64,000 bases of DNA, taken from NCBI RefSeq assembly GCF_037042905.1, contig NC_087251.1, positions 41,852,001 through 41,916,000 on the forward strand. The letters are read 5' to 3'. The DNA is from Lytechinus pictus. Taxonomy: Eukaryota. Shown one piece after another: positions 13,495 to 38,565 of this stretch. How positions within the stretch are numbered: the first letter of the stretch is position 1; the number at the start of each line of letters is the position of its first letter. The translations under genes were made by a program, and so were the position numbers. The notes beneath the pieces were generated by a model. The model was not told where the DNA came from. It worked only from the letters and a program-made list of their open reading frames with translations, and searched no databases.

Positions 13495-13980
13495 CATTTT
13501 AAAAAAATATTGAGTGTCAGGGGAGAAAGAGACTACTATCGCTGGATCTCGGAGCTTAGAAATAGAAGCATCACCGGAAACAGGTATCTGTGGTGAGAAC
13601 ATAGAGATGTATACTATCTCTATGGGTGAGAAGCATCTTTATACAGCTCTGTAGAGGTCAGTGGTGTAGTCGCTTCCGTTAGCTTTCTTTAATTGAGCAC
13701 AAGAGGGTGCGTTACATCCTCTACGTAGAAGTCTATGTGCTGCTGAGGATGACAAATTTCCCTAGATATAAATTCCAACAATATTTCTTGCGATAAATGA
13801 CAATATATCGTTGATTCCAAGATAAATTACAGCAGCAACGGAGACTGTAGTGGTACATGTAAGTCAAACTCTCTTTTACATTTTTAAAAGAATTTTGTCT
13901 ATGAGTATGACTACGCCTCACATACACTAGTCCCATCCCCTACCTTTTGCTGTATGGCGAATGGTCGGGGATGAGGAGTG
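13495..13980. mobile_element. Unclassified 486-bp insertion in gag with 10-bp TSD
   Basis: GCAGAAACCA at 13485-13494 and 13981-13990. The empty site reads MQKPKGKD. No clear TIRs. Confidence 0.6.
13600..13624. mobile_element. 25-bp micro-element CATAGAGAT-gtatact-ATCTCTATG with 8-bp TSD
   Basis: Perfect 9-bp TIR flanked by GGTGAGAA at 13592-13599 and 13625-13632. Confidence 0.75.
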
Positions 13981-14920
13981 GCAGAAACCAAAGGGGAAAG
14001 ATCTACAGAAAGGTAAATCAGAGGTTAAGAAGTGCAAGTTCTGTAACAGGGTTCATGAGATGAAAAAAGAGTCCTGTCCAGCATGGGGACAAAAGTGCAA
14101 AGCTTGCAGTAAGCCTAATCACTTCAAGCAATCTTCAGTGTGCAAGACCAGGAATGTTCACCATGTCGGAGATGATGACTACTCATCCTCAGCTGAAAGC
14201 ATTAGTTTTGTGCAAATTAATGCAGTGGATATGGACAAAGAGCCAATTATCTGTAACATGCTTATCAACAATCAGAGGGTACCGTTCCAGCTGGACTCAG
14301 GTGCAACAGTGAATCTTCTACCACAAAAGTATCTAAAAGAGGAGGATGTAGTTCAGAGTGCAAACATCCGTCTATCTATGTGGAATAAAGCTACAACTCA
14401 GGCTATTGGCAAGTGTAAGGTGATAACCAGAAATCCTGCTACTGGCAAGAAATACAAACTTCAATACCTCAGAAACAGAACCAACCAACCCAGCTTCCCT
14501 GAGACGATCTAGATGTCAGCGACGCGAACCGCTTAAGATGAGGGATTTTGTTACGTTTTGAACATTTAAACCAAAGAAGGAAAGAGAGTGAATGCTGAAA
14601 TAAACAAACTGAACACTAACATTTCTCAAACAACTTTTTTTTTTATATCAAGCAAATTTTGAAGTCAGAACTGAACCAACAACCAACTCTTTCATCAACT
14701 CATCTATCTGGACTTTTTATTTTGTGAAATCAACCTGGACATTTTGTTTGCAACTGGAAGAACTGTTTTGAACTCAATTATTTTTCTGCAACTACAAAAA
14801 TGTGAAAGTCTCATAAACTGGTATTTTGGTTTTATATTTTGGAAATATTTAAATACATTAATTGTTTGGTTTATCACTGATATTTTTTTTATTATCTACA
14901 TTCTCTCTAGCACAAAGCTC

Positions 14921-16936: not shown

Positions 16937-18636
16937 TTTTTGTCTCGCCTGCATAGCAGAGCGAGACTATAGGCGCCGCTTTTCCGACGGCGGCGGCGGC
17001 AACATCAAATCTTTACCTAAGGTTAAGTTTTTGAAATGACATCATAACTTAGAAAGTATATGGACCTAGTTCATGAAACTTGGACATAAGGTTTATCAAG
17101 TATTACTGAACATCCTGCCTGAGTTTCAGGTCACATGACCAAGGTCAAAGGTCATTTAGGGTCAATGAACTTAGACCATGTTGGGAAAATTATTTTCAAA
17201 ATCTTAACCGAAGGTTAAGTTTTTGAAATGACATCATAACTTAGAAAGTATATGGACCTAGTTCATGAAACTTGGGCATAAGGTTAATCAAGTATAAGTG
17301 AACATCCTGCTCGAGTTTCAGGTCACGTGACCAAGGTCAAAGGTCATTTAGGGTCAATGAACTTTGGTCAAGTTGGGGGTATTTGTTGAATTACTATCAT
17401 AACTTTGAAAATTTATGGATTTAGTCCATGAAACTTGGACATAAGGTTAATCAAGTATTAGTGAACATCCTGCCTGAGTTTCAGGTCACATGACCAAGGT
17501 CAAAGGTCATTTAGGGTCAATGAACTTAGACCATGTTGGGAAAATTATTTTCAAAATCTTAACCGAAGGTTAAGTTTTTGAAATGACATCATAACTTAGA
17601 AAGTATATGGACCTAGTTCATGAAACTTGGGCATAAGGTTAATCAAGTATAAGTGAACATCCTGCTCGAGTTTCAGGTCACGTGACCAAGGTCAAAGGTC
17701 ATTTAGGGTCAATGAACTTTGGTCAAGTTGGGGGTATTTGTTGAATTACTATCATAACTTTGAAAATTTATGGATTTAGTCCATGAAACTTGGACATAAG
17801 GTTAATCAAGTATTAGTGAACATCCTGTGCGAGTTTCAGGTCACATGACCAAGGTCAAAGGTCATTTAGGGTCAATGAACTTTGGCCAAGTTGGGGGTAT
17901 TTGTTGAATTACCATCATAACTTTGAAAATTTATGGATTTAGTTCATGAAACTTGGACATTAGGTTAATCAAGTACCACTGAATATCCTGTGTGAGTTTC
18001 AGGTCACATGACTATGGTCAATGGTCATTTAAGGTCAATGAACTTTGGCCGTGTTGGGGGTATATGTTAAATTACCATCCTAACTCTGAAAGTTTATGGA
18101 TCTAGTTCATAAAACTTGGACATAAGAGTAATCAAGTATCACTGAACATCCTGTTCGAGTTTCAGGTCACATGACCATGGTCAAAGGTCGTTAAAGGTCA
18201 ATGAACTTTGGCCGTGTTGGGGGTATTTGTTGAATTTCCATCCTAACTCTGAAGTTTATGGATTTAGTTCATAAAACTTGGGATATAAGATTAATCAAGC
18301 ATCACTGAACATCCCCTGTGAGTTTCAGGTCACAAAACCAAGTCAAAGGTCAGTTAAGGTCAATAAACTTAGGCCATGTTGGGGTAATTGTTGAAGTGCC
18401 ATCATAACTTTGAAAGTTTATGGATAGAGTGAATGAAATGTGGACATGGGTGTACATGTAGTTGACAGTCTTAAGTCTCTGTTCAAATGTCATTTATGGT
18501 CAATGAACGTGGTATTATGTAATTATATGAATGATGTTTTTGTGAATGATTATTTTATAGTAGTTTTCAAAGTTAGCACTGCTGCTATATTAAATTGCGT
18601 AATGCAGGCGAGACTGCCAGAGGCGTTCCACTTGTT
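16937..18636 (+). mobile_element. HINE/Helentron-like element, family 1 copy B (~9 core repeats)
   Basis: TTTTTGTCTCGCCTGCATAGCAGAGCGAGAC...ATGCAGGCGAGACTGCCAGAGGCGTTCCACTTGTT, with 163/192-bp tandem cores including a near-identical 355-bp dimer duplication. Confidence 0.85.
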
Positions 18637-19010: not shown

Positions 19011-19505
19011 CAGGTTTTAGATGATTCAAATTCTCAGCAAGAGCAAAAAGACACACTTAATTCAACTACTCAAAATGAAAACGTCAATGCAAATTCAAAT
19101 AGTGAAGGAGAAGGGCAACTTGATACACCGCCAGAGGAAGCGCCTCTCATCCATGATGAGATGAATCGAGTTGATTATCCACCTACTGATCCAGGAGATA
19201 CTGCTCCTGAAGCAGCAGATGCCCAAAGTCAAGAGACTGAAGCCGTTCCTTCAGATGCCACTCATAGTGTTCCTGCGCTGGCTTCAAGTACCTCTGAGAA
19301 TATTTGCCGAAATGCCAGCAAAGAACTAGACCCAAAGGCCCAGGAAGCCTTTGATCGTGCTGTCCGTGTATTCTGCCCACTTGTAGATCCTAAGCACATG
19401 CTGGATGTAGTAGCTCCTGGCATTGGCAGCTTGCATCTGGACCATGCTCCTCTCAAGGCAGATAGTTCTTTTACCCAGCTTCTCACCAAGATGACTGATG
19501 TAGAG
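19011..19505 (+). CDS. LRR gene, first recognisable exon (acidic low-complexity region; acceptor could be 19011, 19014 or 19021)
   Basis: Long pyrimidine tract plus CAG, an open frame DDSNSQQEQK...LLTKMTDVE, and donor GAG|GTATAT in phase 0 matching the next exon. Confidence 0.75.
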
Positions 19506-19889
19506 GTATATTCCTATTTTCGTATTTAGTTTTCTGTTCTGATTTATTAGTTTTACATTCAGTTTGTTATTAAATCCACATGTATGACCTTGATGCAATC
19601 ATTTCTTTCTGAGTGTTCTGAGTAAGAATTTCATAACTTATTTTTTTTTTGTGGAAAAAATGCATATACAATGAAAGCACAGAAATAGTTAAGTTCTTGT
19701 CATTACCATGGGACTATGTTTTTTTTTTTCGCAGAATTTGACAAAATATTCTTGTACATGTGTACACAATAGTATTCAATTCTCTTACTCAAAAGCTTCA
19801 ATAAAAGTCCAGAGTCTTATATCAGTATAAGTTTGCATTCTTCTATAAGTAACATGGAAATTTTATTCAAATGATTCAATACTTGACAG

Positions 19890-20015
19890 GAATTAGATTT
19901 TGGAAAGAATGAGATGGGACCTCAAGCATTCCGAGTGATCATGATGGCACTGTCAGCCAACACTTCCATCAAATCAGCTGTACTCTCCAACAACAAAACA
20001 GACACAGATACAGCA
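19890..20015 (+). CDS. LRR gene exon 2 (RNI-like LRR)
   Basis: CAG|ELDFGKNEMGPQAFRVIMMALSANTSIKSAVLSNNKTDTDTA|GTGAGT, phase 0-0. Confidence 0.88.
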
Positions 20016-20306
20016 GTGAGTAGCATTTGTTTATTCAAGCCCCCTCCTGCATATAACTTGCCATTTACGGTAATTTGTATGAAATCATTGAATTTGATTG
20101 GTTGTTTGGCAATTCCACCATTTTTATTCCCATTGGATGAAAAAATTTCCTAATAATAACAGTAATTTTAATAAAATAGGGTATTTGGCACTTTGTCCTG
20201 AATGTTGCCATTCTATGAAAATACTAGCGGATCTTTTGGTTTTGATTTGATAAATAGCCGTGCTACAATGGGAACCATCTGTGAAGATCGCTTTAATTAG
20301 CGTTGT

Positions 20307-20610
20307 GGAGCGTTGTGGCCCAGTGGATTAGTCTCCGGACTTTGAAACAGAGGGTTGTGGGTTCGAATCCCAGCCATGGCGTAATTTCCTTCGGCAAGAA
20401 ATTTATCCACATTGTGCTGCACTCAACCCAGGTGAGGTGAATGGGTACCTGGCAGGAATTTATTCCTTGAAATGCGTGTGCGCTGTAATCTTAGTAATTA
20501 CGGCTGCCAAGCTACAGCTGGGGTAATAATATCCAAGTCCTTTGGAAGCGCATAGAGACATTATTCATAATCGTGATATGCGCTATACAAGAACTGTTTA
20601 TTATTATTTA
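20307..20610 (+). mobile_element. tRNA-derived SINE with Deu/Nin-type core and L2-like tail
   Basis: Box A TGGCCCAGTGG, box B GGTTCGAATCC, core CACTCAACCCAGGTGAGGTGAATGGGTACC, and tail GCGCTATACAAGAACTGTT(TAT)n. Confidence 0.88.
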
Positions 20611-21498
20611 ATTAAAACAGTTCTCTTTTGCGTAATAATCTGTTTCAAGGGGGGTGTTTAACTCTGAAGTAATGTTTAAGCAGTAAGTACCAACATACAC
20701 ACAATTATGTATTCATATATTTGTCCATAAAATAAAAATTTGTATTGTTTACATGTTTTTGTGAAAAACCTAATTAAAGACAAGATATCATATGGAATTT
20801 ATAGACATGCAACAATAACAAAAATTATACATTTGATAATGACATTAAGCATATACATTAGATATACTGTATATTAGATAATTATTTACCCAGTCAATGT
20901 CAATGATAATATACCTACAATAATGCATCTTTATAAACAATCTCATATCAATGAGATTATATCATGTCACATATAAAATGATATGATCTGATTGATGAAT
21001 TCCATGGTTGCATATGTTCTCAGAGTGTGTTCCCACTTGTGACAGGAAATTAAAATGTAATTTTGAGTCACTTTCGGTTGTAGCCCCCACCCCCTCCACT
21101 CCCTTGTACTATTACAAACTGCTTTCTCTTTAATAAAATCAACATCATAGCCTGCAATAAGAAAAAAAATGGAAAGCCTTAAAAATAACTAAGATTACAA
21201 GGCTCTGTGCAAGCTATTGATGCTCTTAGCTGGTCAAGAAATACATTTCAAAGGACAATAGACACTGCTCTTTGAAAAATGTTCGCAGAAGGGACAGTTT
21301 TAAAATACTTCTTTGATAAAGTTCTCCCAAAGCAGCTGTATAACTAAAGTCTCTACTTTCATCTTTCAGCAGGAATCACACCGTAAAGGATCTTGTTATC
21401 TTTCACATCATGATTTCTGCATTTTGACATTTGTCAGATTAGAATTAATGGTGACATATATCTCCCCAATTTATTTCATTGATTTGTATCTCTTGCAG

Positions 21499-21635
21499 GA
21501 GAGTATAGGAGTGATGATTACGACCAACCAGACATTGAAGAGCTTGGATCTCTCAAGTAATCAATTAGGGAAGGATTATCTATCAAGATGCATTGGACCT
21601 GCTCTCAAGACAAACACTTCTCTGACAACCCTCAA
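21499..21635 (+). CDS. LRR gene exon 3
   Basis: TTGCAG|ESIGVMITTNQTLKSLDLSSNQLGKDYLSRCIGPALKTNTSLTTL aa|GTAAGT, phase 0-2. Confidence 0.9.
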
Positions 21636-22138
21636 GTAAGTCTTTGATTTGATTGCATATTGACCATGCCTAAGACAGTGATACAAAAGGAAGCTTTTGT
21701 CTCTGTCTTACACAGAGTTGTAAAATACAAATTAAATTAAATTTGAGATTGACCTACATTCTGAACTCTTACAGCATTTGAGATCAATTTCAGAAGAGTT
21801 TGATTTGATTTCTGTAAATCGGTTGACTGAGCAAACAATGATTAGTGTGACAAGCCATTGTTAACCTAACACACATTTTCTTGCCCATCCAATCTGTTGT
21901 TCCTCTGCAGCTACTTTAAATGCACCAATGTTTTTTTTTCAGGGTGAATCAAATTGTCTATTCAGAGTTTGACCTCTGTGGCTACCAACCAATGAATAAT
22001 GTAATTCTCTTATTTTCAATGTGTGCCATTAATATGAAAGAAGTTTATCATTGATTGTCAATTTATTTTTATTTTTTATTGAAAATGAAGATTTCCTTAC
22101 TCCATATTTTATCCTTTCTGGGTTTTTTTACCATAAAG

Positions 22139-22278
22139 CATGTCAAGTTGTGGAGCTACAGACCTTTCTGCTCTCATGGAGGGCCTTCAAGAAAACAATC
22201 CTTAGTAGTCTTGATGTCAGCCACAATCAGTTGTCAAATAGCAATTCATTTGTCACTTCCCTTAGTATAATATTAAAG
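22139..22278 (+). CDS. LRR gene exon 4, frameshifted near 22197-22200
   Basis: AAG|c MSSCGATDLSALMEGLQENN, then a frame change to LSSLDVSHNQLSNSNSFVTSLSIILK|GTAAGT. The phases fit both neighbours only if the indel is corrected. Confidence 0.75.
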
Positions 22279-22835
22279 GTAAGTGTAAAGAAACCTTTCA
22301 TATGCACAAGCTTATTTTGAACTGTCCTGTCATACCCATTGAATAATGGCTGATCAAATGTATTTGGAATGAGATAATTACTAGGCCTAATAATTACAGT
22401 GATTTTATATTTGTGATAAATTGTCCAATCTATGATTTTTTATATCTAAGTTTTAGAAAATATTCACTTTTGCAAACAAAATCATCCAAGAACTTCCATT
22501 TTGAACGATTGCTGGATTGTTTTGACAAAACGGCACACTTTTTTTTTTAACCTTTGTTTGTAAAAGCACGGCGGAATTCACTTAATGAAATAAATGTTTA
22601 ACCCTGAGATTGCTGTCGTCCCTTCATAATTGTAAATCAGTTTTCACTTGACTTTATATTGCTACATTTGCTTTACTTTGAATTAAAATTTCAACCATTT
22701 GAATGTCTGTTTGATGAAGATAATGAGCTCCTGTTACAGAAATAAGATTCTTGGAAAGTGTCATTTGAATTTGGAAGCTCATATTGGTACATTTATGTTG
22801 GTATTTCATGATGTCGTTTCCTTGTTCCTTCCCAG

Positions 22836-22964
22836 AATTCCTCATGTGCAATAAAGGAGCTGAATGTTCGTAACTGTGGGATCCAGGGTACAGGGCTCCA
22901 GGTCCTGGGAGAGGGAGTCAAGGAGAATTCCTCCCTCGTTATATTTCATGCAGGAGGCAATGAT
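22836..22964 (+). CDS. LRR gene exon 5 (not in the ORF track)
   Basis: TTCCCAG|NSSCAIKELNVRNCGIQGTGLQVLGEGVKENSSLVIFHAGGND|GTAAGC, phase 0-0. Confidence 0.88.
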
Positions 22965-23737
22965 GTAAGCTCCATGTGATTCTGTTTTCTTGTTCTGAAA
23001 GTGTCTGTGTTTGTCTGGAGTGGAATGATTGGGAGCGAGAAGTACATAATAAAGTGTTATTGAAGAAATTATCGGCAACGTGCGTGCAAAATATTGATAT
23101 TTGAATTTTTATGAAATATAAATGACTGTGTACAACCGAAGCATGCAAGATATACAAGGACAGTCCATGTACACGGCCATTCATCAGTTGAATACATGTG
23201 TAATATTTCTATAATCCCTGTCCATGCAGGATAATGCTGTTATTTTTAAGGTGCTAAAGACATGATTTCTAAAAAGCTTTTTCTTCTACAGATTATCATA
23301 ATTGTCATTAGAATTAACGTACATTATTGTTAGTCTTATGTAGTAGTACAACCGATCCTTGTCATGTAATATAACAGTAGTTCAAGTGGCTTAATTATAA
23401 TTGTTTCATTGGCATAATCATTTCAGGTTTCAATTCTGGTTTCTGGCTATTTATGGTTTTGAAGATGTTCATATTTAAGGAGAAGCTACATGTATTTTTG
23501 GGTGTCTGAGATACATATGTTTATGGTATTTATATTAATCAGCACTCAATTACAAATAAAGTAGATGCAAAGATAATAAAAGCACAAGAAATACTTGTTT
23601 GACATTTCAATCATTTAAAGCATAGCACGTGCTTAGGGCAAGTCATGATAGTAATATAAACACAGAATAAATTATTCTCAGTTCCTGAAGAGTAGGCCTA
23701 TATATATTGATGGTATGCAGTAATAATGATATTCTAA

Positions 23738-23890
23738 CAGTGGCGTACGCAAGGGGGGGGGGGGGTTACAGGTGGGGTTTTTTGGGGGGAGTACAAAACG
23801 ACCTAAAATATGTGGTAAAGACCTTTTTTTTTGTCAGCATTTCTTTCAGCTTGAACCCCCCCCCTTTCAAAAATCCTGCGTACACGACTG
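23738..23890. mobile_element. Small MITE with G/C tracts
   Basis: Imperfect TIR CAGTGGCGTACGCA...TGCGTACACGACTG. Confidence 0.6.
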
Positions 23891-24017
23891 TGTTACATAT
23901 CAATCTTTTACTTTTACTAGTAGAGATCTTTCCTAATCTGCTTTACTTGGTTTACTGTTTAACATTAATTCAATTAATTGAATTACCCAATGTTATCCCT
24001 CTGAGAAATGTACTATA

Positions 24018-24312
24018 CAGTGCGTTCCACAAAAAAGAAACCAAGAATTATCAATGATTTATCATAAATTAATAAAAAAAATATTAGACAATTGACCTAT
24101 CCTTGTCCTCTCTGGTATAAATTAGATGATTCTTCATTTATACATGAGTGAGTCAAAACAATTCTTGGCAGGCGGTATCTTAGTTTCAATCATCTACCGG
24201 TACATACAAGTTATATCAGATGAAAGAGGAGACTTTAAGCTTTACAATGATAGGTCATTGTCTATTTGTCATTTAGTTAGTTTTTATTTTTGTTGTTTTC
24301 TGAGAAGCACTG
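24018..24312. mobile_element. Tc1/mariner-type MITE, internally deleted relative of 11426-12236
   Basis: TA|CAGTGCGTT...GAAGCACTG|TA with shared arm sequence. Confidence 0.7.
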
Positions 24313-24380
24313 TATATCTAAGAAATCCCTGTAATACATGCGAACTTCAATAAAACAAAATTCTCTGTTTGTTTTGGCAG

Positions 24381-24495
24381 GTTTCTGATGCAAATGTTTT
24401 TTCGGAGGTATTGCTGACCTGTCTCCAGCATCCTTCCTTAGAAACTCTGAATGTGAATGATACCAGAATCAGTGAAACTGGCAATCAAGACATCG
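24381..24495 (+). CDS. LRR gene exon 6 (seed of the minisatellite)
   Basis: TTTTGGCAG|VSDANVFSEVLLTCLQHPSLETLNVNDTRISETGNQDI g|GTAGGT, phase 0-1. Confidence 0.88.
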
Positions 24496-27400
24496 GTAGG
24501 TTAAACCATTAGCATTATGAATCAGGAGAGCTTTCTATGAATGTGAATGATACCAGAGTCAATGTGACTGGCAATCAAGACATTGGTAGGTTAGCATTAT
24601 TAATCAGGGAGCTTTCTATGGATGTGAATGATACCAGAGTCAATGTGACTGGCAATCAAGACATAAGTAGGTTAGCATTATGAATCGGGAGAGCTTTCTA
24701 TGAATGTGAATGATACCAGAGTCAATGTGACTGGCATTCAAGACATTGGTAGATTAGCATTATGAATCAGGAGAGCTTTCTATGAATGTGAATGATACCA
24801 GAGTCAATGTGACTGGCAATCAAGACATTGGTAGATTACCATTATTAATCAGGAGAGCTTTCTATGAATGTGAATGATACCAGAGTCAATGTGACTGGCA
24901 TTCAAGACATTGGTAGATTAGCATTATTAATCAGGAGAGCTTTCTATGAATGTGAATGATACCAGAGTCAATGTAACTGGCAATCAAGACATTGGTAGGT
25001 TAGCATTATGAATCAGGAGAGCTTTCTATGAATGTGAATGATACCAAAGTCAATGTGACTGGCAATCAAGACATTGGTAGGTTAGCATTATGAATCAGAA
25101 GAGCTTTTCATGAATGTGAATGATACCAGAGTCAATGTGACTGGCATTCAAGACATTGGTAGATTAGCATTATGAATCAGGAGAGCTTTCTATGAATGTG
25201 AATGATACCAGAGTCAATGTGACTGGCAATCAAGACATTGGTAGGTTAGCATAATGAATCAGGAGAGCTTTCTATGAATGTGAATGATACCAGAGTCAAT
25301 GTGACTGGCAATCAAGACATTGGTAGGTTAGCATTATGAATCAGGAGAGCTTTCTATGAATGTGAATGATACCAGAGTCAATGTGACTGGCAATCAAGAC
25401 ATTGGTAGGATAGCATTATTAATCAGGACATTAGCTTTTCACGAATGTGAATGATACCAGAATTAATGTGACTGGCAATCAAGACATTGGTAGATTAGCA
25501 TTATTAATCAGGGGAGCTTTCTATGAATGTGAATGATACCAGAGTCAATGTGACTGGCAATCAAGACATAAGTAGGTTAGCATTATGAATCGGGAGAGCT
25601 TTCTATGAATGTGAATGATACCAGAGTCAATGTGACTAGCAATCAAGACATTGGTAGATTACCATTATTAATCAGGACTTGAGCTTTTCATGAATGTGAA
25701 TGTTACCAGAGTCAATGTGACTGGCAATCAAGACATTGGTAGATTAGCATAATGAATCAGATGAGCTTTCTATGAATGTGAATGATACCAGAGTCAATGT
25801 GACTAGCAATCAAGACATTGGTAGATTAGCATTATGAATCGGGAGAGCTTTCTATGAATGTGAATGATACCAGAGTCAATGTGACTGGCATTCAAGACAT
25901 TGGTAGATTAGCATTATGAATCAGGAGAGCTTTCTATGAATGTGAATGATACCAGAGTCAATGTGACTGGCAATCAAGACATTGGTAGATTAGCATAATG
26001 AATCAGGAGAGCTTTCTATGAATGTGAATGATACCAGAGTCAATGTGACTAGCAATCAAGACATTGGTAGATTACCATTATTAATCAGGACTTGAGCTTT
26101 TCATGAATGTGAATGTTACCAGAGTCAATGTGACTGGCAATCAAGACATTGGTAGATTAGCATAATGAATCAGATGAGCTTTCTATGAATGTGAATGATA
26201 CCAGAGTCAATGTGACTAGCAATCAAGACATTGGTAGATTACCATTATTAATCAGGACTTGAGCTTTTCATGAATGTGAATGATACCAGAGTCAATGTGA
26301 CTGGCAATCAAGACATTGGTAGATTAGCATTATTAATCAGGGGAGCTTCTTTTGAATGTGAATGATACCAGAGTCAATGTGACTGGCAATCAGGACATTG
26401 GTAGGTTAGCATTATTAATCAGGGAGCTTTCTATGAATGTGAATCGATGTGACTGGCAATCAAGACATAAGTAGGTTAGCATTATGAATCAGGAGAGCTT
26501 TCTATGAATGTGAATGATACCAGAGTCAATGTGACTGGCATTCAAGACATTGGTAGGTTAGCATTATGAATCGGGAGAGCTTTCTATGAATGTGAATGAT
26601 ACCAGAGTCAATGTGACTGGCATTCAAGACATTGGTAGATTAGCATTATGAATCAGGAGAGCTTTCTATGAATGTGAATGATACCAGAGTCAATGTGACT
26701 GGCAATCAAGACATTGGTAGATTATTAGCATTATGAATCAGGAGAGCTTTCTATGAATGTGAATGATACCAGAGTCAATGTGACTGGCATTCAAGACATT
26801 GGTAGGTTAGCATTATGAATCGGGAGAGCTTTCTATGAATGTGAATGATACCAGAGTCAATGTGACTGGCATTCAAGACATTGGTAGATTAGCATTATGA
26901 ATCAGGAGAGCTTTCTATGAATGTGAATGATACCAGAGTCAATGTGACTGGCAATCAAGACATTGGTAGATTAGCATTATGAATCAGGAGAGCTTTCTAT
27001 GAATGTGAATGATACCAGAGTCAATGTGACTGGCAATCAAGACATTGGTAGATTACCATTATTAATCAGGACTTGAGCTTTTCATGAATGTGAATGATAC
27101 CAGAGTCAATGTGACTGGCAATCAAGACATTGGTAGGTTAGCATTATGAATCAGGAGAGCTTTCTATGAATGTGAATGATACCAGAGTCAATGTGACTGG
27201 CATTCAAGACATTGGTAGATTAGCATTATGAATCGGGAGAGCTTTCTATGAATGTGAATGATACCAGAGTCAATGTGACTGGCATTCAAGACATTGGTAG
27301 ATTAGCATTATGAATCAGGAGAGCTTTCTATGAATGTGAATGATACCAGAGTCAATGTGACTGGCAATCAAGACATTGGTAGATTACCATTATTAATCAG

Positions 27401-28081
27401 GACTTGAGCTTTTCATGAATGTGAATGATACCAGAGTCAATGTGACTGGCAATCAAGACATTGGTAGGTTAGCATTATGAATCAGGAGAGCTTTCTATGA
27501 ATGTGAATGATACCAGAGTCAATGTGACTGGCAATCAAGACATTGGTAGGTTAGCATTATGAATCAGGAGAGCTTTCTATGAATGTGAATGATAACAGAG
27601 TCAATGTGACTGGCAATCAAGACATTGGTAGGTTAGCATTATGAATCAGGAGAGCTTTCTATGAATGTGAATGATACCAGAGTCAATGTGACTGGCATTC
27701 AAGACATTGGTAGATTAGCATTATGAATCAGGACTCTAGCTTTTCATGAATGTGAATGATACCAGAGTCAATGTGACTGGCAATCAAGACATAAGTAGGT
27801 TAGCATTATTAATCAGGACTCTAGCTTTTCATGAATGTGAATGATACCAGAGTCAATGTGACTGGCAATCAAGACATTGGCAGGTTAGCATTATTAATCA
27901 GGAGAGCTTTCTATGAATGTGAATGATACCAAAGTCAATGTGACTGGCAATCAAGACATTGGTAGGTTAGCATAATGAATCAGGAAAGCTTTCTATGAAT
28001 GTGAATGATACCAGAGTCAATGTGACTGGCAATCAAGACATTGGTAGGTTAGCATTATGAATCTGGAGAGCTTTTTATGAA
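24448..28081 (+). repeat. Minisatellite of ~44 units of mostly 82 bp (81-85), derived from exon-6 end + splice donor + MITE end
   Basis: Consensus ATGAATGTGAATGATACCAGAGTCAATGTGACTGGCAATCAAGACATTG-GTAG(G/A)TTAGCATTATGAATCAG-GAGAGCTTTCT. The first unit is the exon itself. Copy number is estimated from length. Confidence 0.95.
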
Positions 28082-28188
28082 GCAACCTGTCAGTGATTTT
28101 CAGCGACATATTTACTCTTAGCCCTTCAGAGTTTCTGTTTCTTGCATAGTTGTTTTGGAAAAAACTGCTTCTTTCATGAAACACTCAC
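28063..28188. mobile_element. Degenerate MITE whose left end forms part of the repeat unit
   Basis: GGAGAGCTTTTTATGAAGCAACCTGTCAGTGATTTTC...TTTCATGAAACACTCAC. The ends resemble the CAGGGGAGTGTTT...AAACGCTCCCCTG element at 57337-57473. Confidence 0.55.
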
Positions 28189-28190
28189 TT

Positions 28191-28320
28191 GGGGACTGTA
28201 ACACAAGGCTTGGCAATCATTGTACAATTTTTTGTATGATTGATTACATTGACTGCAATGTATAATATATCATGAAAATCACACGTATGATTAATCACCA
28301 ACTTTTGTGTTATGGGACCC
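28191..28320. mobile_element. Harbinger-type MITE
   Basis: Imperfect TIR GGGGACTGTAACACAA...TTGTGTTATGGGACCC. Confidence 0.5.
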
Positions 28321-29007
28321 AGGTTATCCCAGTATTCAAGCTTATGAGAATAAACATTTTTATAGTAAATGAGTTAAGAAATCATTGAATCTCTAAGAGA
28401 CTCAGCTTACAGCGATGATACTGCAAAAAAAAAAAAAAAAAAACAATTAATCTTCAAAATACAGTACTTAGCCAATATAATGTATAACTTGTAGGTTTCA
28501 TGTGAATTTCTTTGTTGAACTGGTAATAGTATGACTCTGTTAAACGTCAATATTTTCGTCAATAAATTTTTCTGAGTACAATTTTGTATAATTTGTATGT
28601 AAAAGAGTTATGTAAATTAATTTGATTCGTTATTGATTTGTTTATGTTATGAAATAAAGTTTTTTTTTATTCTCTGGAATAAAAAGGAAAGAAAGAAAAA
28701 AAAATGAATCTGTTAAACTATTCTTCATCAGTATGCTTGAAGAGATTAGTTGTTCTACTCAAGCTTTCAGAACCAAATCTGGCCCATTTAAAGGATTTCA
28801 GGCTTTTCACCAACTTCTTGGCAAACATGCTTCCTCAGTGTATCGTATTAACACAAGCAAAAATTAAAAATTAAGAACCTAGTATAACTATAAGACATTA
28901 TTAGTCTTTAATAGGTCAGATTTCTTGTCACAATATCCTGTATTCTCGTATTCATTTAATCAGCAAGGCCTTTCATCTCCTGTATTCTCTCACTCATAAA
29001 CACATAG

Positions 29008-29220
29008 ATTCAGCATCCATAAGTGAAAAAAGGAAAAGCAGCCTGAAAATGTTGAATTTGGCGAACTGCTCCATAACTGATGACATCATGAAAGTACTGG
29101 CCAATCAGCTTCCTGCATGCTTACCACATGTCACAGAATTGAGTTTATCAGGAAACTCTGAGATGATGACAGTCTCGCTTCAGTATGTTGCTCAGCTGAC
29201 TGCATTGACAGAGGGTTCAG
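29008..29220 (+). CDS. LRR gene exon 7
   Basis: TAG|(D)SASISEKRKSSLKMLNLANCSITDDIMKVLANQLPACLPHVTELSLSGNSEMMTVSLQYVAQLTALTEGS g|GTAGGT, phase 1-1. An alternative acceptor at 29014 is also in frame. Confidence 0.85.
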
Positions 29221-30393
29221 GTAGGTAACCAACATATTTCTACAAGATTTTACTGAAAATACTTTGTACTTTATACTTTGCACTAAAAGCAACATAATGG
29301 TTCATAGCAAATTATTTTACCCTTGTTTGAATAAATCAAACAAACAGATGAATTAATTCCATACCATCTTATATACATGTAGCTAAATATATGTAGAGGG
29401 AATAATTGTTGACATACTGTATGTTTTCATATTAGGAGGTCAAGTAAAGGGTATTACTCAAAACAATGTGAATAAAATAGATCACAGTGGATGAGCCTCT
29501 AGTCAAGAACTTGCGACTTATTCAATTAACTATTCTATTCCATCTGATTACTGGTTAGATCTCCACAGAGCCTGCATCTATTAAGTCAAAGTTATTGGCA
29601 AAGTGAAAAGAGAGCATATTGGTCATTACACAAAATATGGAAACATTAAGATAGAACGACAATTGGATTTTTTAAAATATCATACCATAATATGAATATC
29701 TGAAATTAGAATTAAACTAAGTTTTGGCTTGACGCAGTCCTCACTATAACCCTGTAACATAAAGCCGAACAAGTGATTATAGAACTGAAATAGAATTGAT
29801 AATATGATCACTGCACAATCAAGCATTAAAATCAGTTGTACATAATTGCTAAGCTTTGCTTTCATAGGGTCCTAATTGTATTAGCCAGAGCGTTGGGAAT
29901 TACACCAATTGGTTTTAGACCAAATGGTTGAAATCTTCTGCTTTGGCCTAGAGAAATTATTCTTGATAAGTAATTATTAATATTTAATCTGTGCTAATAG
30001 TGTATTCTCCAGGATACCAATACCATTAGCCTATTTGAAGGAATTACGGTCTGAAAAGGATATTTGTCAGTGCCACCTAACTTATACTGATTGATTGATC
30101 GTAGAAATTTGTATTTTCTTTGTTAATTTGGATTTTGCACGATCTTCTTTATTGTTTAACTTAGAATACAAAACTGATTTGAAGTATTTTGCACTTTGCA
30201 ATTGGCACTCCAATATGCTACACTAGTCTTGAATGAATTTTCTCACAATATCAATTCTCCAGCATAAGTGTAGTATTCAGACCACTATATAACATATTCT
30301 AATGTGTCAGGTTTTCTGTTTGCAAACTTGAATTTAACAGAGTTAAATTAATTAAACTAATTTGTTCAAATATGTCCTCTGTCTTAACTTCAG

Positions 30394-30645
30394 AATCCTC
30401 CATATCATCAGGTTTGACTCATCTTCACCTTGATCAGCAGTCTTTGGAAGATCTTCCTGATCATCTTCTCAACAATCCATCCTTCCCTAGCCTTACCATG
30501 CTGAGTATATGTAAGGCCAAGATATCACCAGCTAGTCTGGGTAGACTATCTCATCTACTACAGGGACCAGGTGGTCTCACAGAGCTCTGTTTGAGCGGAC
30601 TCAAACTGTCAGAGACAGAAGCATTGGAACAGCTCTTTGAGCCAG
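30394..30645 (+). CDS. LRR gene exon 8
   Basis: TTCAG|(E)SSISSGLTHLHLDQQSL...LTMLSICKAKI...LTELCLSGLKLSETEALEQLFEP g|GTGAGG, phase 1-1. Confidence 0.88.
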
Positions 30646-30737
30646 GTGAGGGGATTGATAGTATGACACATGCCTTGATTCGTGCATTTCATAGTACATG
30701 CGCCACCAAGTCATTATCATTAGAGTCCTACGTGTAC

Positions 30738-31197
30738 TTTTTTTTGTCTCGCCCACCGGAGGTGAAGGCGAGACTTGGGGATCCAAATGTCGTCCGTCGT
30801 CCGTCCGTCACAAACCTAATGACACAACTCCGCAACCATAAGTCACTTTTCAACCAAACTTGGATGGTAGATGGACTTGGGGGACCTGCATGTTATGCTG
30901 CAGTCGGATGTCACATGGTAAGGTCAAAGGTCATTTTCAGGACAACGTTAAAGTTTACATGCAAGACTCTTATGACACCTAACTCTGCAACCGTAAGTCA
31001 CTTTTCAACCAAACTTGGGTTGTAGGTGTACTTAGGAGACCTGCATGTTATTGTGTTTGGAGGTCACACGGTATGGTCAAAGTTCATTTTGAGGTCGACA
31101 TTAAAGTTTATGGGCAAGACTCTTATGACAAGTGTTATTCCATCCCAGTCATTTCACAATGAAGTTTTGATACAATTCTGTTGCGTGCCCTCGCAAA
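30738..31197 (+). mobile_element. HINE-like element, family 2
   Basis: T-run + GTCTCGCCCACC with hairpin partner GGTGAAGGCGAGAC, a (CGTC)n tract, two ~155-bp cores, and a terminal hairpin TTGCG..CGCAA. The same 5' end recurs inverted at 63925-63978. Confidence 0.7.
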
Positions 31198-31941
31198 GTG
31201 CAGGGAAGAATAAGGATTAATCAGTAGAACTACAAGTGAGGTCAAAGGAAAATTGTATTTTTAAATGAGGTTTGTATTTACTTTGAAAGAGATATAGTGA
31301 TTAATGCATAGTGTTGAGTATACTGTTGTTGACCAGTATTTCAGGAACAACACAAAGGAGTGACGTCACAATAAGGGCACAACTTACATAATGAAATGCA
31401 TAAATTTTGAAAGGAATATGATATTGAAAAATGTGTACTGTTCATGGGAAACATAGATATGTTGGCATTGCACATCATATGAGTAAATCCCATTTAGAAC
31501 AAAGTAACCTCATTTTCTGGTATGGCTCCATTACTTCTCATGCATAACACTAAAAATCATACAAAATATATCATTTTGTTGCATTGTTATCTTTCTCATT
31601 GCTAATCATTTTGAAAGGAAAATAATCACTTAATGTGACAGGGAACAAATGAATCACTGTTTTCTCTTGAAAATTAGCAAATATCTCAATTCTATTGGAA
31701 TTCTGGATCAAGCTCCATTTATATTTTATACATAAACATTAAAAAGGGAAATGTAGCAATGAAAGAAAAATTACATTTTTCCAATTAATAGAATTAAAAC
31801 TGATCATTGAAGATTTCACATTCCCCTTAATAACCAAGAAGATGTTAGTTCATTTGTTTTTAAAGTCAAGTTGACATAATTACATTCACAAAGATTGCAC
31901 TGAAAAGTAATGTTCAATTGTCTGCTTTGTTGTGGTTACAG

Positions 31942-32159
31942 CTGTCAATCTGAGCTTGAAGAGTCTTTCCTTAGCTGGTTGTGCCCTCAAAGACTCTGAC
32001 CTTCAACCGCTGACCTCTGCACTTTCTGCTGGATGGTGTGTGACCTCATTGACCTTAGCCAGCAACAGATTGACGGGGTCAGGGGTCAATCCCCTGCTGG
32101 AGGCCTTGACCAGTTCCGAAGAACCATGCATTGAATCTCTGAATCTCAACTCAAATCAG
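31942..32159 (+). CDS. LRR gene exon 9
   Basis: TACAG|(A)VNLSLKSLSLAGCALKDSDL...VTSLTLASNRLTGSGV...IESLNLNSNQ|GTAATT, phase 1-0. Confidence 0.9.
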
Positions 32160-32629
32160 GTAATTAAAAAAAAACAAATTGAAGGGTTTCCTCTGCTGTT
32201 TTCCATCATATCATCCTTCTGCAATAATGAAACAAAGGGAAGAAAACAGAGTTGATATCCAGTTCATATACAGCATAATAAATATTTGTTGTTGTAATTT
32301 ATTTTGTCAAAATGAGGGAAATATTATCGTAACTCTCAATTCCAGCATTCTAAATCAGCATCTTTTGAAGTAAATAATGTGAAACCAAATAAAAATCAAC
32401 TATGTAGGAAGCTGGTTATTTTGAGAGTTTACTATACTATTGAGTGAGAATGTACAAGGATTCATTGTACAGAAGTCTTTTTGATGTGGTTGTATACATG
32501 ATGTATTTGGGAATTCTAAGGGTTGAATGTCGATCGATTTTATTAAATTCTATAAGAATTGCATGCTTACAGGCTTTCAATTTGAAAAAAAATCTATATT
32601 TTTTTCTTACTTACATTTACATCATCCAG

Positions 32630-32846
32630 CTATCAGATGACTGTCAAGATGTGCTGACTAGTCTCCTTACCAAGGCCAAGAAGCTGCATACATTATCTTT
32701 CAATAGAAATAGCCTGGGTTGTCAGACTTTATCAGCAATAATGAATGCATTACACCTGGCAGAGAGTCTAAAGCTGCTTGATCTGAGAAATCCTTTAGAT
32801 GAAGAAGATATGGAAGAACTCATGAAGAATTTATCAGAGGAACTAG
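32630..32846 (+). CDS. LRR gene exon 10
   Basis: CCAG|LSDDCQDVLTSLLTKAKKLHTLSFNRNSLGCQ...LKLLDLRNPLDEEDMEELMKNLSEEL g|GTAAGA, phase 0-1. Confidence 0.9.
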
Positions 32847-33682
32847 GTAAGAATATATCCATTGACTGGTGGGGTATATCAAAGATATGATATAACATAT
32901 TCTGTTCCAGTGGTAAAGTCAAATTAACAATATTTGACAAGAAAACATGATTTCTTTCTTTAATCATCTTGTGGTAACATATAGTTTTATAAGATTCTGT
33001 TCATGCTATACAGGGGGGGGGGGGGGATACTACTTTCCCTATAAGTGAAGATTGGGAGAAAGAAAAGTTTTACAAGTTTTAACTAGTTATAGACAAAGCT
33101 TATATCTTGGTCTTCTTGGACAAAACTACAATTTAATTTTGTTTTTCTCTTTTGATTTCTCTGTTTTCTCTCTTAAGTTACTTACTTGCAATTGTCTAAA
33201 TATTGGCACCTGTTATGCATACTTTTAGCTCTTGACTGATTACATCGCTGGTTCTCCTACAACTCCTACTTGCAGGACAATTTATAAAATACTAATAATG
33301 ATAATAAAATGAACAATCCAAATGTCCCTGTATCTGTCATGTGTAGATGCTCATGACGCAGTATTGAAAGGAAATAGAAACATTGTGAAAAGGGAAGAGA
33401 GCTACTTTTACTGGAAAGCTTTCTGAATAACCAGATTTTTTGTAAGATTTTGAAGATGCTAAGAGAGGAAATTTTACAGAAATCTTGTGGAAATGATAAA
33501 AAATTATGGAGGGTCAATTGTCATAAGCATATCAGTGATTTTAATTTTCTGAATGTATCAGCAATTACAAAAGAATATTTGTGGAATTGGAAGATGAATA
33601 TCAAAATATGTAACTAATGTGACCGAAACTCAAAGCAAATTTGACTGAATAAAATTCAATTTCTTATCCTTTCTTATCCAAG

Positions 33683-33919
33683 GATACACCATACATGAAG
33701 ACGAATATGGTGGTATCGAGGCTGGACGTGGCCATCTTCCATCCAGATCATCTGACTTGTCCATCTTGTTGACTGGTCTTGGAGCTGACCTTGGACCTGT
33801 TGGTAGGTCACTGGACAGTGCAATGGTCAAGACTGACCATGGATTAAAGCATCCTCTTCCGCTTAGTCTTCAACATGCCTTACATCTTGGGGCTTGGATG
33901 ACTGCACAAGATCCCATGA
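33683..33919 (+). CDS. LRR gene exon 11 (post-LRR region; not in the ORF track)
   Basis: Pyrimidine tract + AAG|(G)YTIHEDEYGGIEAGRGHLPSRSSDLSILLTGLGADLGPVG...GAWMTAQDPM a|GTAAGT, open, phase 1-1. Confidence 0.78.
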
Positions 33920-35068
33920 GTAAGTGATAAATTTTCTTCGACAGTCCAGCTCAAATTCCCTGATAAAGCAGGCAATTTCTGATTAGATTTTTGTCTAGTA
34001 TTGTAGTTCAGAGATCATGAGTTTTAAAGTTATCGATCACACTTGAATTATTCAGATTTAATATTATTTACTTCAATTCAGCCCCACAATGCAAAAGGGA
34101 TGTGTACCTGTCCATTGATCATAATTTCTTCTCTGGTGATCCAATTCATTAGGACAAAACTTTGTTCAAAAATAATAAAATAGCAAAATGTACTTCATAG
34201 AGGTACATAGAGAAGATTTTGATTCTTAGACCAATATCCATCAAGATAATTTTTTTTAAAGAGTTGATGGTACTTGATTCAATGTACACAAATTTCTCTA
34301 ACAGATTCAAAGAATAAGAAGATGGAAAGGAATTTAAGTTTCTCAATTATAAAATTGCATACCTATGCATGATCTGTTGAAACTCAACAAAGTCTGAAAA
34401 ATAGAATCGGTTTTAAGGAAATTCTTTTACATCATTGATTGAATTTTGTACTTTGGCAGGAAATATAAGAGTTTCAATTCAAGATCAGCCAATTTAACCA
34501 AAAAAAAACATGGAATTTGAGCTTGACTTTCACGTATTCATTTATACATTGCTTGAATTTGCAAAAATGCTCCGCTGGCCTGTTATAAGGTAGATTTATC
34601 TAATGATTCTAGATTGTTTTGATTTTGAAATAAAAAGAGAAGAACTTTACAAAGTCTCTCATCGAGATTATTGCCATACTTTATTTATTCAGAAACATTT
34701 AGATGCTTGCAGATATAATTTGCTATGTAGTCTCCTATTCTGAATGTTGCTTTGATGCTAAATAGTATTTTCATTTTATTTGAAAAAGAACAATGTCTGC
34801 AATGTGGAAATTCAATAACTGTACCATTTCATGCATTTCTTATTTCATGCCCTGAAGTCGCGCATTTATTGTGATGTCATTCTACATTAACTCTGAGATA
34901 TTGGTCAAACAAAGTGTAATAAACACCATGAAATAATCCCTGTGTTTCTCAGTCAAAATAATTACAAACCTCATTTATACATAAACTACACTTCCCTGGA
35001 ATGACAATTGTAGTTCTACCAATTGTTTCCTGCACTTAGGATTCATTATTCAGTTGAATATCTCTTTG

Positions 35069-36076
35069 TTTTTGTCTCACCTGCATAGCAGAGTGAGACT
35101 ATATGCGCCGCTTCTCCGACAGCGGCAGCATCAACACCAAATCTTAATCCAAGGTTAAGTTTTTAAAATGATAGCATAACTTAAAAAGTATATGGACCTA
35201 GTTCATGAAACTTAGCCATAAGATTAATCAAGTATTACTAAACATCCTGCCTGAGTTTCGGGTCACATGACCAAGGTCAAAGGTCATTTAGGGTCAATGA
35301 ACTTAGACCATGTTGGGGAATCAACATCAAAATCTTAACCTAAGGTTAAGTTTTTGAAATGTCATCATAACTTAGAAAATATATGGACCTAGTTCATGAA
35401 ACTTGGATATAAGGTCAATCAAGTATTACTGATCATCCTGCTCGAGTTTCACGTCACATGATCAAGGTCAAAGGTCATTTAAGGTCAATTAACTTTGGCC
35501 AAGTTGGGGGTATTTGTTGAATTACCATCATAACTTTGAAAGTTTATTGGTCTAGTTCATAAAAATTGGACATAAGAGTAATCAAGTATCACTGAACATC
35601 CTGTGCGAATTTCAGGTCACATGACCAAGGTCAAGGTCAATAAACTTTGGCCATGTGGGGGAGTATCTGTTGAATTACTATCATAACTTTAAAAGTTTAT
35701 GGATCTGATTCATGAAACTTGGACAAAGAGTAATCAAGTATCTTTGAACATTTCGTCCGAGTTTCAGATCACATGACCAAAGTCAAAAGTCATTTAAGGT
35801 CATTGAACTTTGGCCATTTTAGAGGTAATTATTAGATTGTTGTCATAACTTTCAAAGTTTATAGATATAGTGTAATGTGGATATAGGGGTAATCAAGTTT
35901 TACTGACAAGTTTTAGGTCACATGATCAAGGTCAAATGTCAATGAACGTAGTATTGTATCATTATATGAATGGTGTTTTTTTTAAATAATTATTTGATAG
36001 TAGTTTTCAAAGTCAGCACTGCTACTATATTGAATCTCGTGATGCAGGTGAGACCGCCAGAGGCATTCCACTTGTT
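35069..36076 (+). mobile_element. HINE/Helentron-like element, family 1 copy C
   Basis: Same termini as copies A and D, with ~5 cores. Confidence 0.85.
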
Positions 36077-36109: not shown

Positions 36110-36985
36110 TGTCATCGAATCTAAATCATTGCGTCCAATTATACGTTGGGCTACTCCCCTCGTTCTGTCTAGCTTTTTTTTATATCTGCCTGCGTTGCAT
36201 TACCAAAATAGCAGATGATGTTGTATGTAGCAACACTTTCAATTAGTGATCTGTAAAAGAGAATTAGTATAGTTTTATCTACATGCATTTTTCTCATCAT
36301 TCTCAGGAAATACATTCTCTGATTGCACTTTTTCCTAAAAAAAGTGACATTTGGTGACCGGTCGAGAAACTAACATACAGTTGTTCCCAGATATTTATAA
36401 GTTTGCACTCTTTCAATTTCTGACCCTTGAATAATAATCTGCTGTCTTGCTTGTGGATTTCTCCGGAAATCTATGACCATTTCCTTTGTCTTTGAGACAT
36501 TCAATTTGAGGTAGTGGCGTTCACACCACTCTACAAACCAATTTACGCAACTGACATACTCATTTTCTTTTCTGATATCTGATATATAGCCCTAAATTAC
36601 CCTATCATCGGCATACTTTGTGATGTGGCAATTTGGCAATACACTCTTACAATTACTTGTGTAGATAGAAAATAACACTGGGGAAAGAACACAGCCTTGG
36701 GGCGCTCCAATACTAATAGATCTGACATGAGAGTTTACGTTTCCCATGTGAACATATTGTTGTCTTTCGTTTAAAAAATCTTGAATCCATAAAATAAGGG
36801 TAGGATGTGCTTTCATCTCTACAAGCTTGTTAGCAAATATATGCGGTACAATTGTATTGAAAGCACTTGAAAAATCAACGAATAAGCATCTAACAGAATT
36901 ACCTGCGTAATCCAAGTGATTATATACATTATGTAGAAATGTCAAAATTGCATCGTCTACTCCTCTACCTTCTCTATAAGCAAAT
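36110..36985 (-). mobile_element. LINE reverse transcriptase remnant (Rex1/Babar-like)
   Basis: FAYR.GRGVDDAI, VRCLFVDFSSAFNTI, GAPQGCVLSPVLF, KYADD, LNVSKTKEMVIDFRR, YKYLG, with stops present. Confidence 0.88.
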
Positions 36986-37334
36986 TCAAATATTCAAATA
37001 TGATTCAGTACAGGCTGGTTTCCTGTAAACACTGATGGATTATAATTGGATCATTGTTTACACAGACCATCGTGTCCCAGAAGTTGAATGACCTCTGAAC
37101 TTCTTCGTCAAGAGTGAAGTTTTGGTCAATGTTGTTGATATAATCGGTGGATTGTTGATATGGTCACAACGATTACTAATGTGTCGTCCACGTATCTCTA
37201 CCAAATCTGACGGGGTGTGTTGCTTCCATGAACCTGTTATAGTTTATAGGTATAAAGAACTTAGTGAATGTAGTTGTTTCTTGAAAATTCCCCGAGATTG
37301 TCAGAAATTCCCAATCTTCCCACAAATTCCTGTT

Positions 37335-38565
37335 TATTCCCATGGAAAGTTTCCACCACAAAAATTCACGGGAATTTTGCAACACTTATACAGGCAAGTT
37401 GCTGGGTCCTCCTTTTGTTACCTCTCTGCCACATTGTTGATGTTACCACGTTCAACTGCTCGGCCTACCTCTCCCATCTGAGCTTATCCCTCCATGCCCC
37501 TGGAACAAGGTTGTAGACTTCATCTTCTGCATACATCTGGCCAAAATCCAAATTGGCATTCCCCATTATCGTAAGGTTGTGAAGGAAATACAAGCAGTGG
37601 CTATAGTCCTCATAATCTTTGGAGTTTGAAGTGTTCTTTCACTCAATCATTGACAGTTCTTGTCAACTCATCTCCTTTTGTGAGAGATGGTAATTGAAGA
37701 TCTGCTGATGTGTGACATTGGCATGCCTGTAAGGTCTTGTCATTGTGGTTCTCATAAGAAAGATGTCATCCTGAAGTATGACAAATGGAAAACATTTAAA
37801 AGTGTCCTGCCGTCGTTCAGGATTGGTGATAGATCTGGGAACCCAATGCTATCGTCTTTAATGCTGTCATCCCATTCGCAGTTGTTATAGATCTGCGCAT
37901 CGGATTGTTGGTCGGATTGGTCCAATCCTCTGATATCGAACCAAATGAACTTGTACTTACTGTTCACCAGTGCCATGAGGACAATGTTAGTGAAACCTTT
38001 ATAATTGTGATAGAGGCTTTTGGAGTGATCTAGTTTCTTGATGGCCATGTGCTTGCCATCTAATGCTCCCAAAGCATGGGGTATATTCCACCTTTGTTTC
38101 GAGCCATCCTACTGGGGTTAGGGGGGCAGGGTAGTACTTCTTCCTTGTATTCAGCTGCAGTGGCCCTGCAGACCTCGGGTACGAAAGGGCATATTGATTC
38201 AGATGATGTCCAGAAGTCAAATGACAATGAAGTGTAGGTATCAGCAGTTGGCATGTACCTTAACCTCATGGCCAGCTTCAGGCATGCAGTGATAGTTCTT
38301 CCGAACTATGTAAACTGCTTCTGCATTCAATGATGTACTCAATGACACGGTCAGTTGAATATTGCTGGGGTAATTCTCAGGTACCTTTTGAACGACTGTA
38401 TGTCTTCAGCTTGGAGTTCTTGCATGTGTCCAAACTGAAGCCTCCTTTCTGTTGTCACCATGACCATGGCTTCACAAACCCTGCTGTAACGTCTTCTTTT
38501 TTCCTTTTGAGAGCCAGGGCTAGTCCTAGTTGAAGTTCAGCAAGATGAACGGGTGTGATTGCCAT
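37335..38565 (-). mobile_element. Decayed PIF/Harbinger (HARBI1-like DDE) transposase
   Basis: LAMRLRYMPTADTYTSLSFDF, GALDGKHMAIKK, SLYHNYKGFTNIVLMALVNSKYKFIW, SDAQIYN, ATACISLHNL, GNFPWE*, with many frameshifts. Confidence 0.85.

What the first reader, a model, noticed from the sequence alone, without database searches (positions are those of the whole stretch)
24448..28081. A coding exon end plus its 5' splice site amplified ~44 times as an intronic minisatellite
Seen: the 82-bp unit is the last ~48 nt of LRR exon 6 (LNVNDTRISETGNQDI in the exon, MNVNDTRVNVTGNQDI in the copies), its donor G|GTAGGT, about 20 nt of intron, and the left end of the MITE that follows the array. A TGAA microhomology (exon CTCTGAA|TGTG versus MITE TTTATGAA|GCAA) marks the unit boundary. 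The pre-mRNA would therefore carry dozens of near-copies of the real donor, some GTAGGT and many mutated to GTAGAT. Inference: these could compete for U1, use of any distal donor would add stop codons and trigger NMD, and copy number could act as a heritable dial on expression.
Basis: partly seen in the sequence, partly recalled or inferred. Interest (0 to 1): 0.75.

Follow-up and report, generated by a model that had tools for sequence, protein, structure and literature searches.

The report
Repeated splice donor in urchin gene
A sea urchin gene carries 43 tandem copies of an exon end plus its splice signal inside the next intron, but the RNA seen uses the first signal, as in several known human genes, and the gene copy in this window is broken upstream anyway, so it is an ordinary example of a known oddity.

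Summary
The array is real: 24448-28081, 82-bp unit, 43 copies after the exon's own. It repeats the last 47 nt of a coding exon of a Lytechinus leucine-rich-repeat gene, plus its donor. Of the 43 copies, 18 keep GTAGGT and 23 read GTAGAT. Any distal donor would add a stop at 24510. The MITE is unproven.

The dial idea is not supported. In two RNA runs of one study, 18 and 28 reads splice at 24495, and no loose end at a copy donor is listed. Depth over the copy unit was 2.47 and 0. NMD could hide distal use.

First, a related species has the same exon-to-copy junction and a high-depth unit, so the array is old. Second, this window's gene copy has a frameshift with a stop at 22203, upstream of the array, plus 10 private amino-acid changes. 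Its exon letters were absent from the reads.

This is the known class of human F7 intron 7, where 1-12 repeats did not change donor choice (PMC1557585). Verdict: new member of a known kind, low interest.

The parts
24448..28081 (+). 82-bp minisatellite: the exon's own unit plus 43 copies (30 distinct sequences)
24381..24495 (+). coding exon (115 nt, residues 631-668 of P0001) whose last 47 nt seed the unit
   Evidence: tblastn; spliced reads
24496..24501 (+). real donor TCG|GTAGGT, the one used by the listed spliced reads
   Evidence: 18 and 28 loose-end reads at 24495 that continue with the next exon
24510..24512 (+). in-frame TAG that any distal donor would bring into the mRNA
   Evidence: 43 of 43 distal donors
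24586..28049 (+). 43 copy donors: 18 GTAGGT, 23 GTAGAT, 1 GTAGGA, 1 GCAGGT; the two nearest the exon keep GTAGGT
   Evidence: weak inverted ends, 201 of 2000 shuffles as good; no second copy in the window
29008..29220 (+). next exon and its acceptor
   Evidence: loose-end consensus
22139..22278 (+). upstream exon, 2 nt short near 22194 relative to relatives; frameshift with stop TAG at 22203
19014..33919 (+). host gene copy: 11 exons of an uncharacterised LRR gene (residues 289-1050 of L. pictus P0001), with a frameshift, a 3-residue deletion in exon 32630-32846 and 10 private amino-acid changes

Best explanation
A tolerated, old exon-boundary minisatellite of the F7 intron 7 kind. A piece of about 90 bp spanning the exon end and intron start was duplicated, probably at the TGAA microhomology (inferred). 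One copy gained 5 substitutions and lost 8 nt, and that unit was amplified and mixed by unequal exchange or slippage (inferred from fixed differences and repeated unit pairs). The spliceosome takes the most upstream donor, which closes a 115-nt exon; the copies stay silent and are removed with the intron (first-donor use shown in reads; the mechanism is borrowed from F7). The array is older than the split from a related species (junction shown, age inferred). The gene copy in this window has since been frameshifted upstream, so here the array cannot tune full-length protein.
For: Reads: 18 (X21) and 28 (X22) leave the stretch at 24495 and continue with the next exon; the spliced contig of X1 also ends its piece at 24495; depth on the copy unit is 2.47 and 0. 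No copy matches the consensus better than the real donor: 18 tie at 6 of 9 and 25 score 5 of 9. All 10 Lytechinus and Strongylocentrotus protein models aligned have the plain junction. Age: in X5 (organism B, whose exon letter at 21511 matches L. variegatus P0006) a 99-nt contig at single-copy depth 43.3 spans 24477-24575, and a unit variant has depth 383.5 against 30-49 for unique contigs. Turnover: 3 repeated unit pairs, reached by 2% of shuffles. Decay: stop at 22203; 10 private changes in 753 residues, against 0 for P0001 and 3 for P0007. Precedent: PMC1557585.
Against: The RNA is steady-state, from one study, and about 6% of each run was read; NMD could erase distal products. Only the best-supported loose ends were shown (295 hidden; 3 reads needed to list one). 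X21 has a few sense reads on the copy unit whose nature is unresolved. The reads carry non-window exon letters, so they report on another allele or copy whose array length is unknown. The two extra letters at 22194 appear in only 3 of 9 and 2 of 17 reads, and the output does not say what the other 21 read. The frameshift could be an assembly error. Scanning was shown in mammalian cells, not urchins.
Confidence: 0.8

Rival explanations
1. Copy-number dial: the copies compete for U1, distal splicing feeds NMD, and array length sets expression.
For: 18 of 43 copies keep GTAGGT and tie the real donor on consensus match; all distal products carry a stop. X21 shows depth 2.47 on the copy unit. In human 6-16 and CBS two proximal pseudo-sites are used (introduction of PMC1557585). 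The array appears in two species.
Against: No copy-donor loose end is listed against 46 real-donor reads, and X22 has zero depth on the copy unit. In F7, 1-12 repeats did not alter donor choice. Where pseudo-sites are used it is the nearest ones, so adding distal units should do little (inference). The window's copy is frameshifted upstream.
Confidence: 0.05
2. The array grew only because the gene copy was already dead, so nothing selected against decoy donors. This was my first reading.
For: The window's copy has a frameshift, a 3-residue deletion and 10 private changes. Both L. pictus gene models stop at residue 1052 and lack the C-terminal part of L. variegatus and S. purpuratus.
Against: Organism B carries the exon-to-copy junction at single-copy depth together with the unshifted upstream exon, and the L. 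variegatus protein is full length. So the array appears older than the damage.
Confidence: 0.08
3. Selection disarmed the copies: GTAGAT spread because it weakens the decoy donors.
For: 25 of 43 copies have a poorer consensus match. 9 of the gene's 11 real donors have G at +5.
Against: The two copies nearest the exon, which should matter most, keep GTAGGT. GTAGAT is confined to copies 3-39, as a variant spreading by turnover would be; the runs test gives P 0.06.
Confidence: 0.05
4. The array or its length is an assembly artefact.
For: No read or contig spanning the whole array was seen; only the first two units were laid.
Against: There are 30 distinct unit sequences with shared variant patterns, and high-depth unit contigs in X1 (47.5 against 2 for introns) and X5.
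Confidence: 0.02

Closest known systems
Human F7 intron 7 37-bp VNTR (Borensztajn et al. 2006, PMC1557585; abstract, introduction and part 3 of 6 of the text read)
   Same: The first unit spans the exon-intron boundary, the donor is reiterated in the intron, and only the most upstream donor is seen in use.
   Different: F7 has 5-9 units with 4 exonic nt and identical donors. Here there are 44 units with 47 exonic nt, no copy is identical to the real 9-mer, and the host copy is frameshifted.
Human PDGF intron 4 (81 bp, 16-18 repeats) and LAMIN B2 (100 bp, 10-15 repeats), as described in the introduction of PMC1557585; original papers not seen
   Same: Similar unit size; only the authentic donor is used.
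   Different: More copies here; an invertebrate; shared with a related species.
Human 6-16 (25 pseudo-sites) and CBS intron 13 (15-20 repeats), as described in the introduction of PMC1557585; original papers not seen
   Same: Same anatomy.
   Different: There two pseudo-sites are also used; no such use was listed here.
Splicing-associated tandem repeats in GTEx (PMC10078293; start of abstract and 12 passages seen)
   Same: Repeat length can correlate with splicing, which is the general idea behind the dial.
   Different: Motifs up to 20 bp in humans; no such association was tested or seen here.

Membership tests
Exon-boundary donor minisatellite (F7 IVS7 kind) | First unit spans a real exon-intron boundary | tested here: met
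Exon-boundary donor minisatellite (F7 IVS7 kind) | Donor sequence reiterated head to tail in the intron | tested here: met
   42 of 43 copies keep GT and 18 keep GTAGGT; none has the exact 9-mer
Exon-boundary donor minisatellite (F7 IVS7 kind) | Most upstream donor used in mRNA | tested here: met
   46 listed reads and one contig at 24495; none listed at the copy donor; the reads come from a non-window allele or copy
Exon-boundary donor minisatellite (F7 IVS7 kind) | Copy number varies between individuals | not testable with these tools
   No spanning long reads; contig depth is not a copy number
Exon-boundary donor minisatellite (F7 IVS7 kind) | Copies work as donors when the first is mutated | not testable with these tools
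   Needs a minigene
Unproductive splicing coupled to NMD as a regulator | Alternative product carries a premature stop | tested here: met
   TAG 24510 in 43 of 43 distal products
Unproductive splicing coupled to NMD as a regulator | Alternative product is actually made | tested here: inconclusive
   None listed in steady-state RNA; depth 2.47 and 0 on the copy unit; no NMD block
MITE | Terminal inverted repeats | tested here: inconclusive
   201 of 2000 shuffles score as high
MITE | Many dispersed copies | tested here: inconclusive
   No second copy in 64 kb; the genome is not held
Decayed gene copy or null allele (host) | Frame disruption and excess of private changes | tested here: met
   Stop 22203, 3-residue deletion, 10 private changes against 0 and 3; assembly error not excluded for the 2-nt gap
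Decayed gene copy or null allele (host) | Not expressed | tested here: inconclusive
   Window letters in 0 of 54, 0 of 31 and 0 of 39 reads at 21521, 22267 and 24403 (2 of 54 not read as G at 21517); the animals may not carry this copy

The most novel reading that the evidence does not exclude
The array has been kept in two Lytechinus species with GT donors intact because it drains a hidden share of transcripts into NMD, or holds U1 on the intron, so that its length tunes this LRR gene; steady-state RNA would not show it.
Probability: 0.05. Interest if true: 0.6.

Novelty: new member of a known kind. Interest (0 to 1): 0.17.

Why it matters
It matters little on its own. It is a clean invertebrate example that 43 downstream donor copies, 18 as good as the real one by consensus match, are apparently ignored, and that such an array can persist across a species split. 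It could serve as a substrate to ask whether the first-donor rule found for human F7 holds in echinoderms. If a hidden NMD drain scaled with copy number, it would be a heritable expression dial built from a gene's own splice signal, but nothing here points to that.

Tried and rejected
- No whole genome is held, so paralogue versus allele, the missing 5' and 3' exons and MITE copy number could not be checked.
- The run search listed no holder on record as RNA among indexed runs; the raw RNA runs were added by species label and then laid.
- MITE tests were inconclusive. That it resembles a common urchin element is my recall only.
- A search for shorter proteins with the C-terminal 179 residues of P0006 gave 3 hits among 676 candidates, none named L. 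pictus; this is weak evidence.
- Identity among copies does not fall with distance (0.915-0.930 for distances 1-12), and no repeated run of 3 identical units exists, so I rejected a regular higher-order repeat.
- Paper searches: (VNTR, UPF3A, splice terms) found nothing, so recalled human cases where VNTR length shifts donor use are not cited. One search (Lytechinus, minisatellite, splice) listed 2 papers, neither about this locus by title and abstract start. No supplements were read.
- Look-ups of earlier notes by place and by sequence were empty.
- My first idea, that the array arose in an already dead copy, was weakened by run X5.

Full report
1. Observation. Tandem Repeats Finder gives an 82-bp array at 24508-28081 (43.4 copies, 92% matches, score 5967), with an overlapping row from 24448. 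Cutting at the exon's own word gives 44 units: the exon's and 43 copies, 30 of them distinct, mean pairwise identity 92.5%. Each copy holds a version of the last 47 nt of exon 24381-24495, a donor-like site and about 35 further nt. The copies differ from the exon at 5 of 47 positions, nearly all fixed, and lack an 8-nt piece found only after the real donor. The donors are TTG|GTAGAT 23, TTG|GTAGGT 14, TAA|GTAGGT 4, TTG|GTAGGA 1 and TTG|GCAGGT 1; the real one is TCG|GTAGGT. TGAA stands at both ends and at the unit junction printed. The MITE is not established: 201 of 2000 shuffles give as good an inverted match and the window holds no second copy.

2. Host gene. One exon found three proteins among 92 candidates: L. 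pictus LOC129257075 (P0001, 99%) and two 94% hits, one of them S. purpuratus LOC581313. They carry LRR_6 repeats and have no informative name. Eleven exons from 19014 to 33919 match residues 289-1050 of P0001. Residues 1-286, and the C-terminal part present in L. variegatus and S. purpuratus, have no match in the window. Both L. pictus models also lack that C-terminal part.

The window's copy is damaged. Exon 22139-22278 is 2 nt short, giving TAG at 22203. Exon 32630-32846 lacks 3 residues. Ten of 753 aligned residues are private to it, against 0 for P0001 and 3 for P0007. It shares V289 and V825 with L. variegatus where both L. pictus references differ, which hints at a duplicate or an old allele. 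It also shares S670 with P0001 alone, so the history is not clean. Without the genome I cannot tell allele from paralogue, or exclude an assembly error for the 2-nt gap.

3. Which donor is used. I laid 4 of the 23 listed runs on 21400-24625, a stretch that holds the real donor and one copy, so reads from any copy should fall on that one. In the raw RNA runs X21 and X22 (one study, about 6% of each read), three upstream introns are spliced as predicted. At the array exon, 18 and 28 reads leave at 24495 and continue with the next exon. No loose end is listed at the copy donor 24585, though 295 weaker loose ends were not shown and 3 reads are needed to list one. Mean depth over 24532-24625 is 2.47 in X21 and 0 in X22, so copy-donor products are a few reads at most. 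The spliced contig of X1 also ends its piece at 24495. All 10 protein models aligned have the plain junction.

Two limits apply. All 43 distal donors would carry TAG 24510, so NMD could remove such products. And the reads are not of the window's type: window letters appear in 0 of 54, 0 of 31 and 0 of 39 reads at 21521, 22267 and 24403. The two letters missing at 22194 are listed in only 3 of 9 and 2 of 17 reads, and in the X1 and X5 contigs; the output does not say what the other 21 reads show. If they lack the letters, the frameshift is common in this species, which would weaken the dial further.

4. Age and reality. X1 has a unit contig at depth 47.5 against 2 for intron contigs that match the window at 578 of 579 letters. 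X5 is a DNA-type run of organism B, whose letter at 21511 gives the Leu of L. variegatus P0006. It has a 99-nt contig spanning 24477-24575 at depth 43.3, like its unique contigs (30-49). It also has a unit variant, 7 nt shorter but still reading GTAGGT, at depth 383.5. Depth is no copy number, but this indicates a multi-copy array at the same exon in a related species whose protein is full length. This goes against my first reading that the array grew in an already dead gene. Three repeated unit pairs (2% of shuffles) suggest unequal exchange. The two nearest copies keep GTAGGT and the runs test on the +5 letter gives P 0.06, so there is no sign of selective disarming.

5. Mechanism. Shown: the anatomy, first-donor use in the reads seen, stops in all distal products, and damage to the window's copy. 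Inferred: origin by duplication at TGAA, amplification of a drifted unit, and first-donor choice by upstream priority or exon definition of a 115-nt exon (205 nt or more for any copy). No copy beats the real donor on consensus match: 18 tie at 6 of 9 and 25 score 5 of 9. This count is crude; no splice-strength model was available.

6. Known kind. PMC1557585 (abstract, introduction and part 3 of 6 read) describes this class: F7 intron 7, CBS intron 13, 6-16, LAMIN B2 and PDGF intron 4 (81 bp, 16-18 repeats). In F7 minigenes 1-12 repeats did not change donor choice, a TGG/gtaggt pseudo-site did not compete, and only perfect sites did. In 6-16 and CBS two pseudo-sites are also used, so slight proximal use here is possible. 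Earlier notes of this scan list 6 findings holding all my search words, among them a larger array in RCE1 of this same genome. These are unchecked leads, used only to judge how common the pattern is. My search for Lytechinus, minisatellite and splice listed two papers, neither about this locus by title and abstract start; no supplements were read.

7. Verdict. It is a new member of a known kind, interest 0.17. The bold reading, a conserved hidden NMD drain, has probability about 0.05.

Noticed in passing
   Followed up: partly
window 33683-33925; P0001, P0007: Both L. pictus gene models end at MSK just past this exon, lacking about 175 C-terminal residues present in L. variegatus and S. purpuratus and 54% identical in Patiria. 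The gene may be truncated in the whole species.
   Followed up: partly
P0001 and P0007: Two L. pictus locus ids (LOC129257075, LOC129255531) encode 1052-aa proteins differing at 7 residues; the window's copy is a third version.
   Followed up: partly
window 29218-29226: The next exon's donor is also GTAGGT (CAG|GTAGGT); isoforms X3 lack 6 residues at this junction.
   Followed up: no
window 5595-6401, 17007-18447, 35130-35871: Dispersed tandem family with 152-192 bp periods; a further copy is visible near 42000-42460.
   Followed up: no
window 13113-14512, 36592-36993, 37752-38108: Mobile-element remnants: aspartyl-protease-like frame (E 0.001), reverse transcriptase fragment (E 4e-16) and DDE_Tnp_4 fragment (E 0.004).
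   Followed up: partly
window 4385-10617: Similar frames at 4385-4675 and 10276-10617 flank long frames at 8684-10320 that look like a retroelement by recall; Pfam gave no useful hit.
   Followed up: partly
window 20300-20600: Looks like a tRNA-derived SINE by recall; ARAGORN found no tRNA in the window.
   Followed up: partly
window 23740-23890 and 24014-24275: Two very high-copy short repeats in the intron before the array exon (summed depth up to 113,868 in X5); the second has copies at 11422-12188.
   Followed up: no
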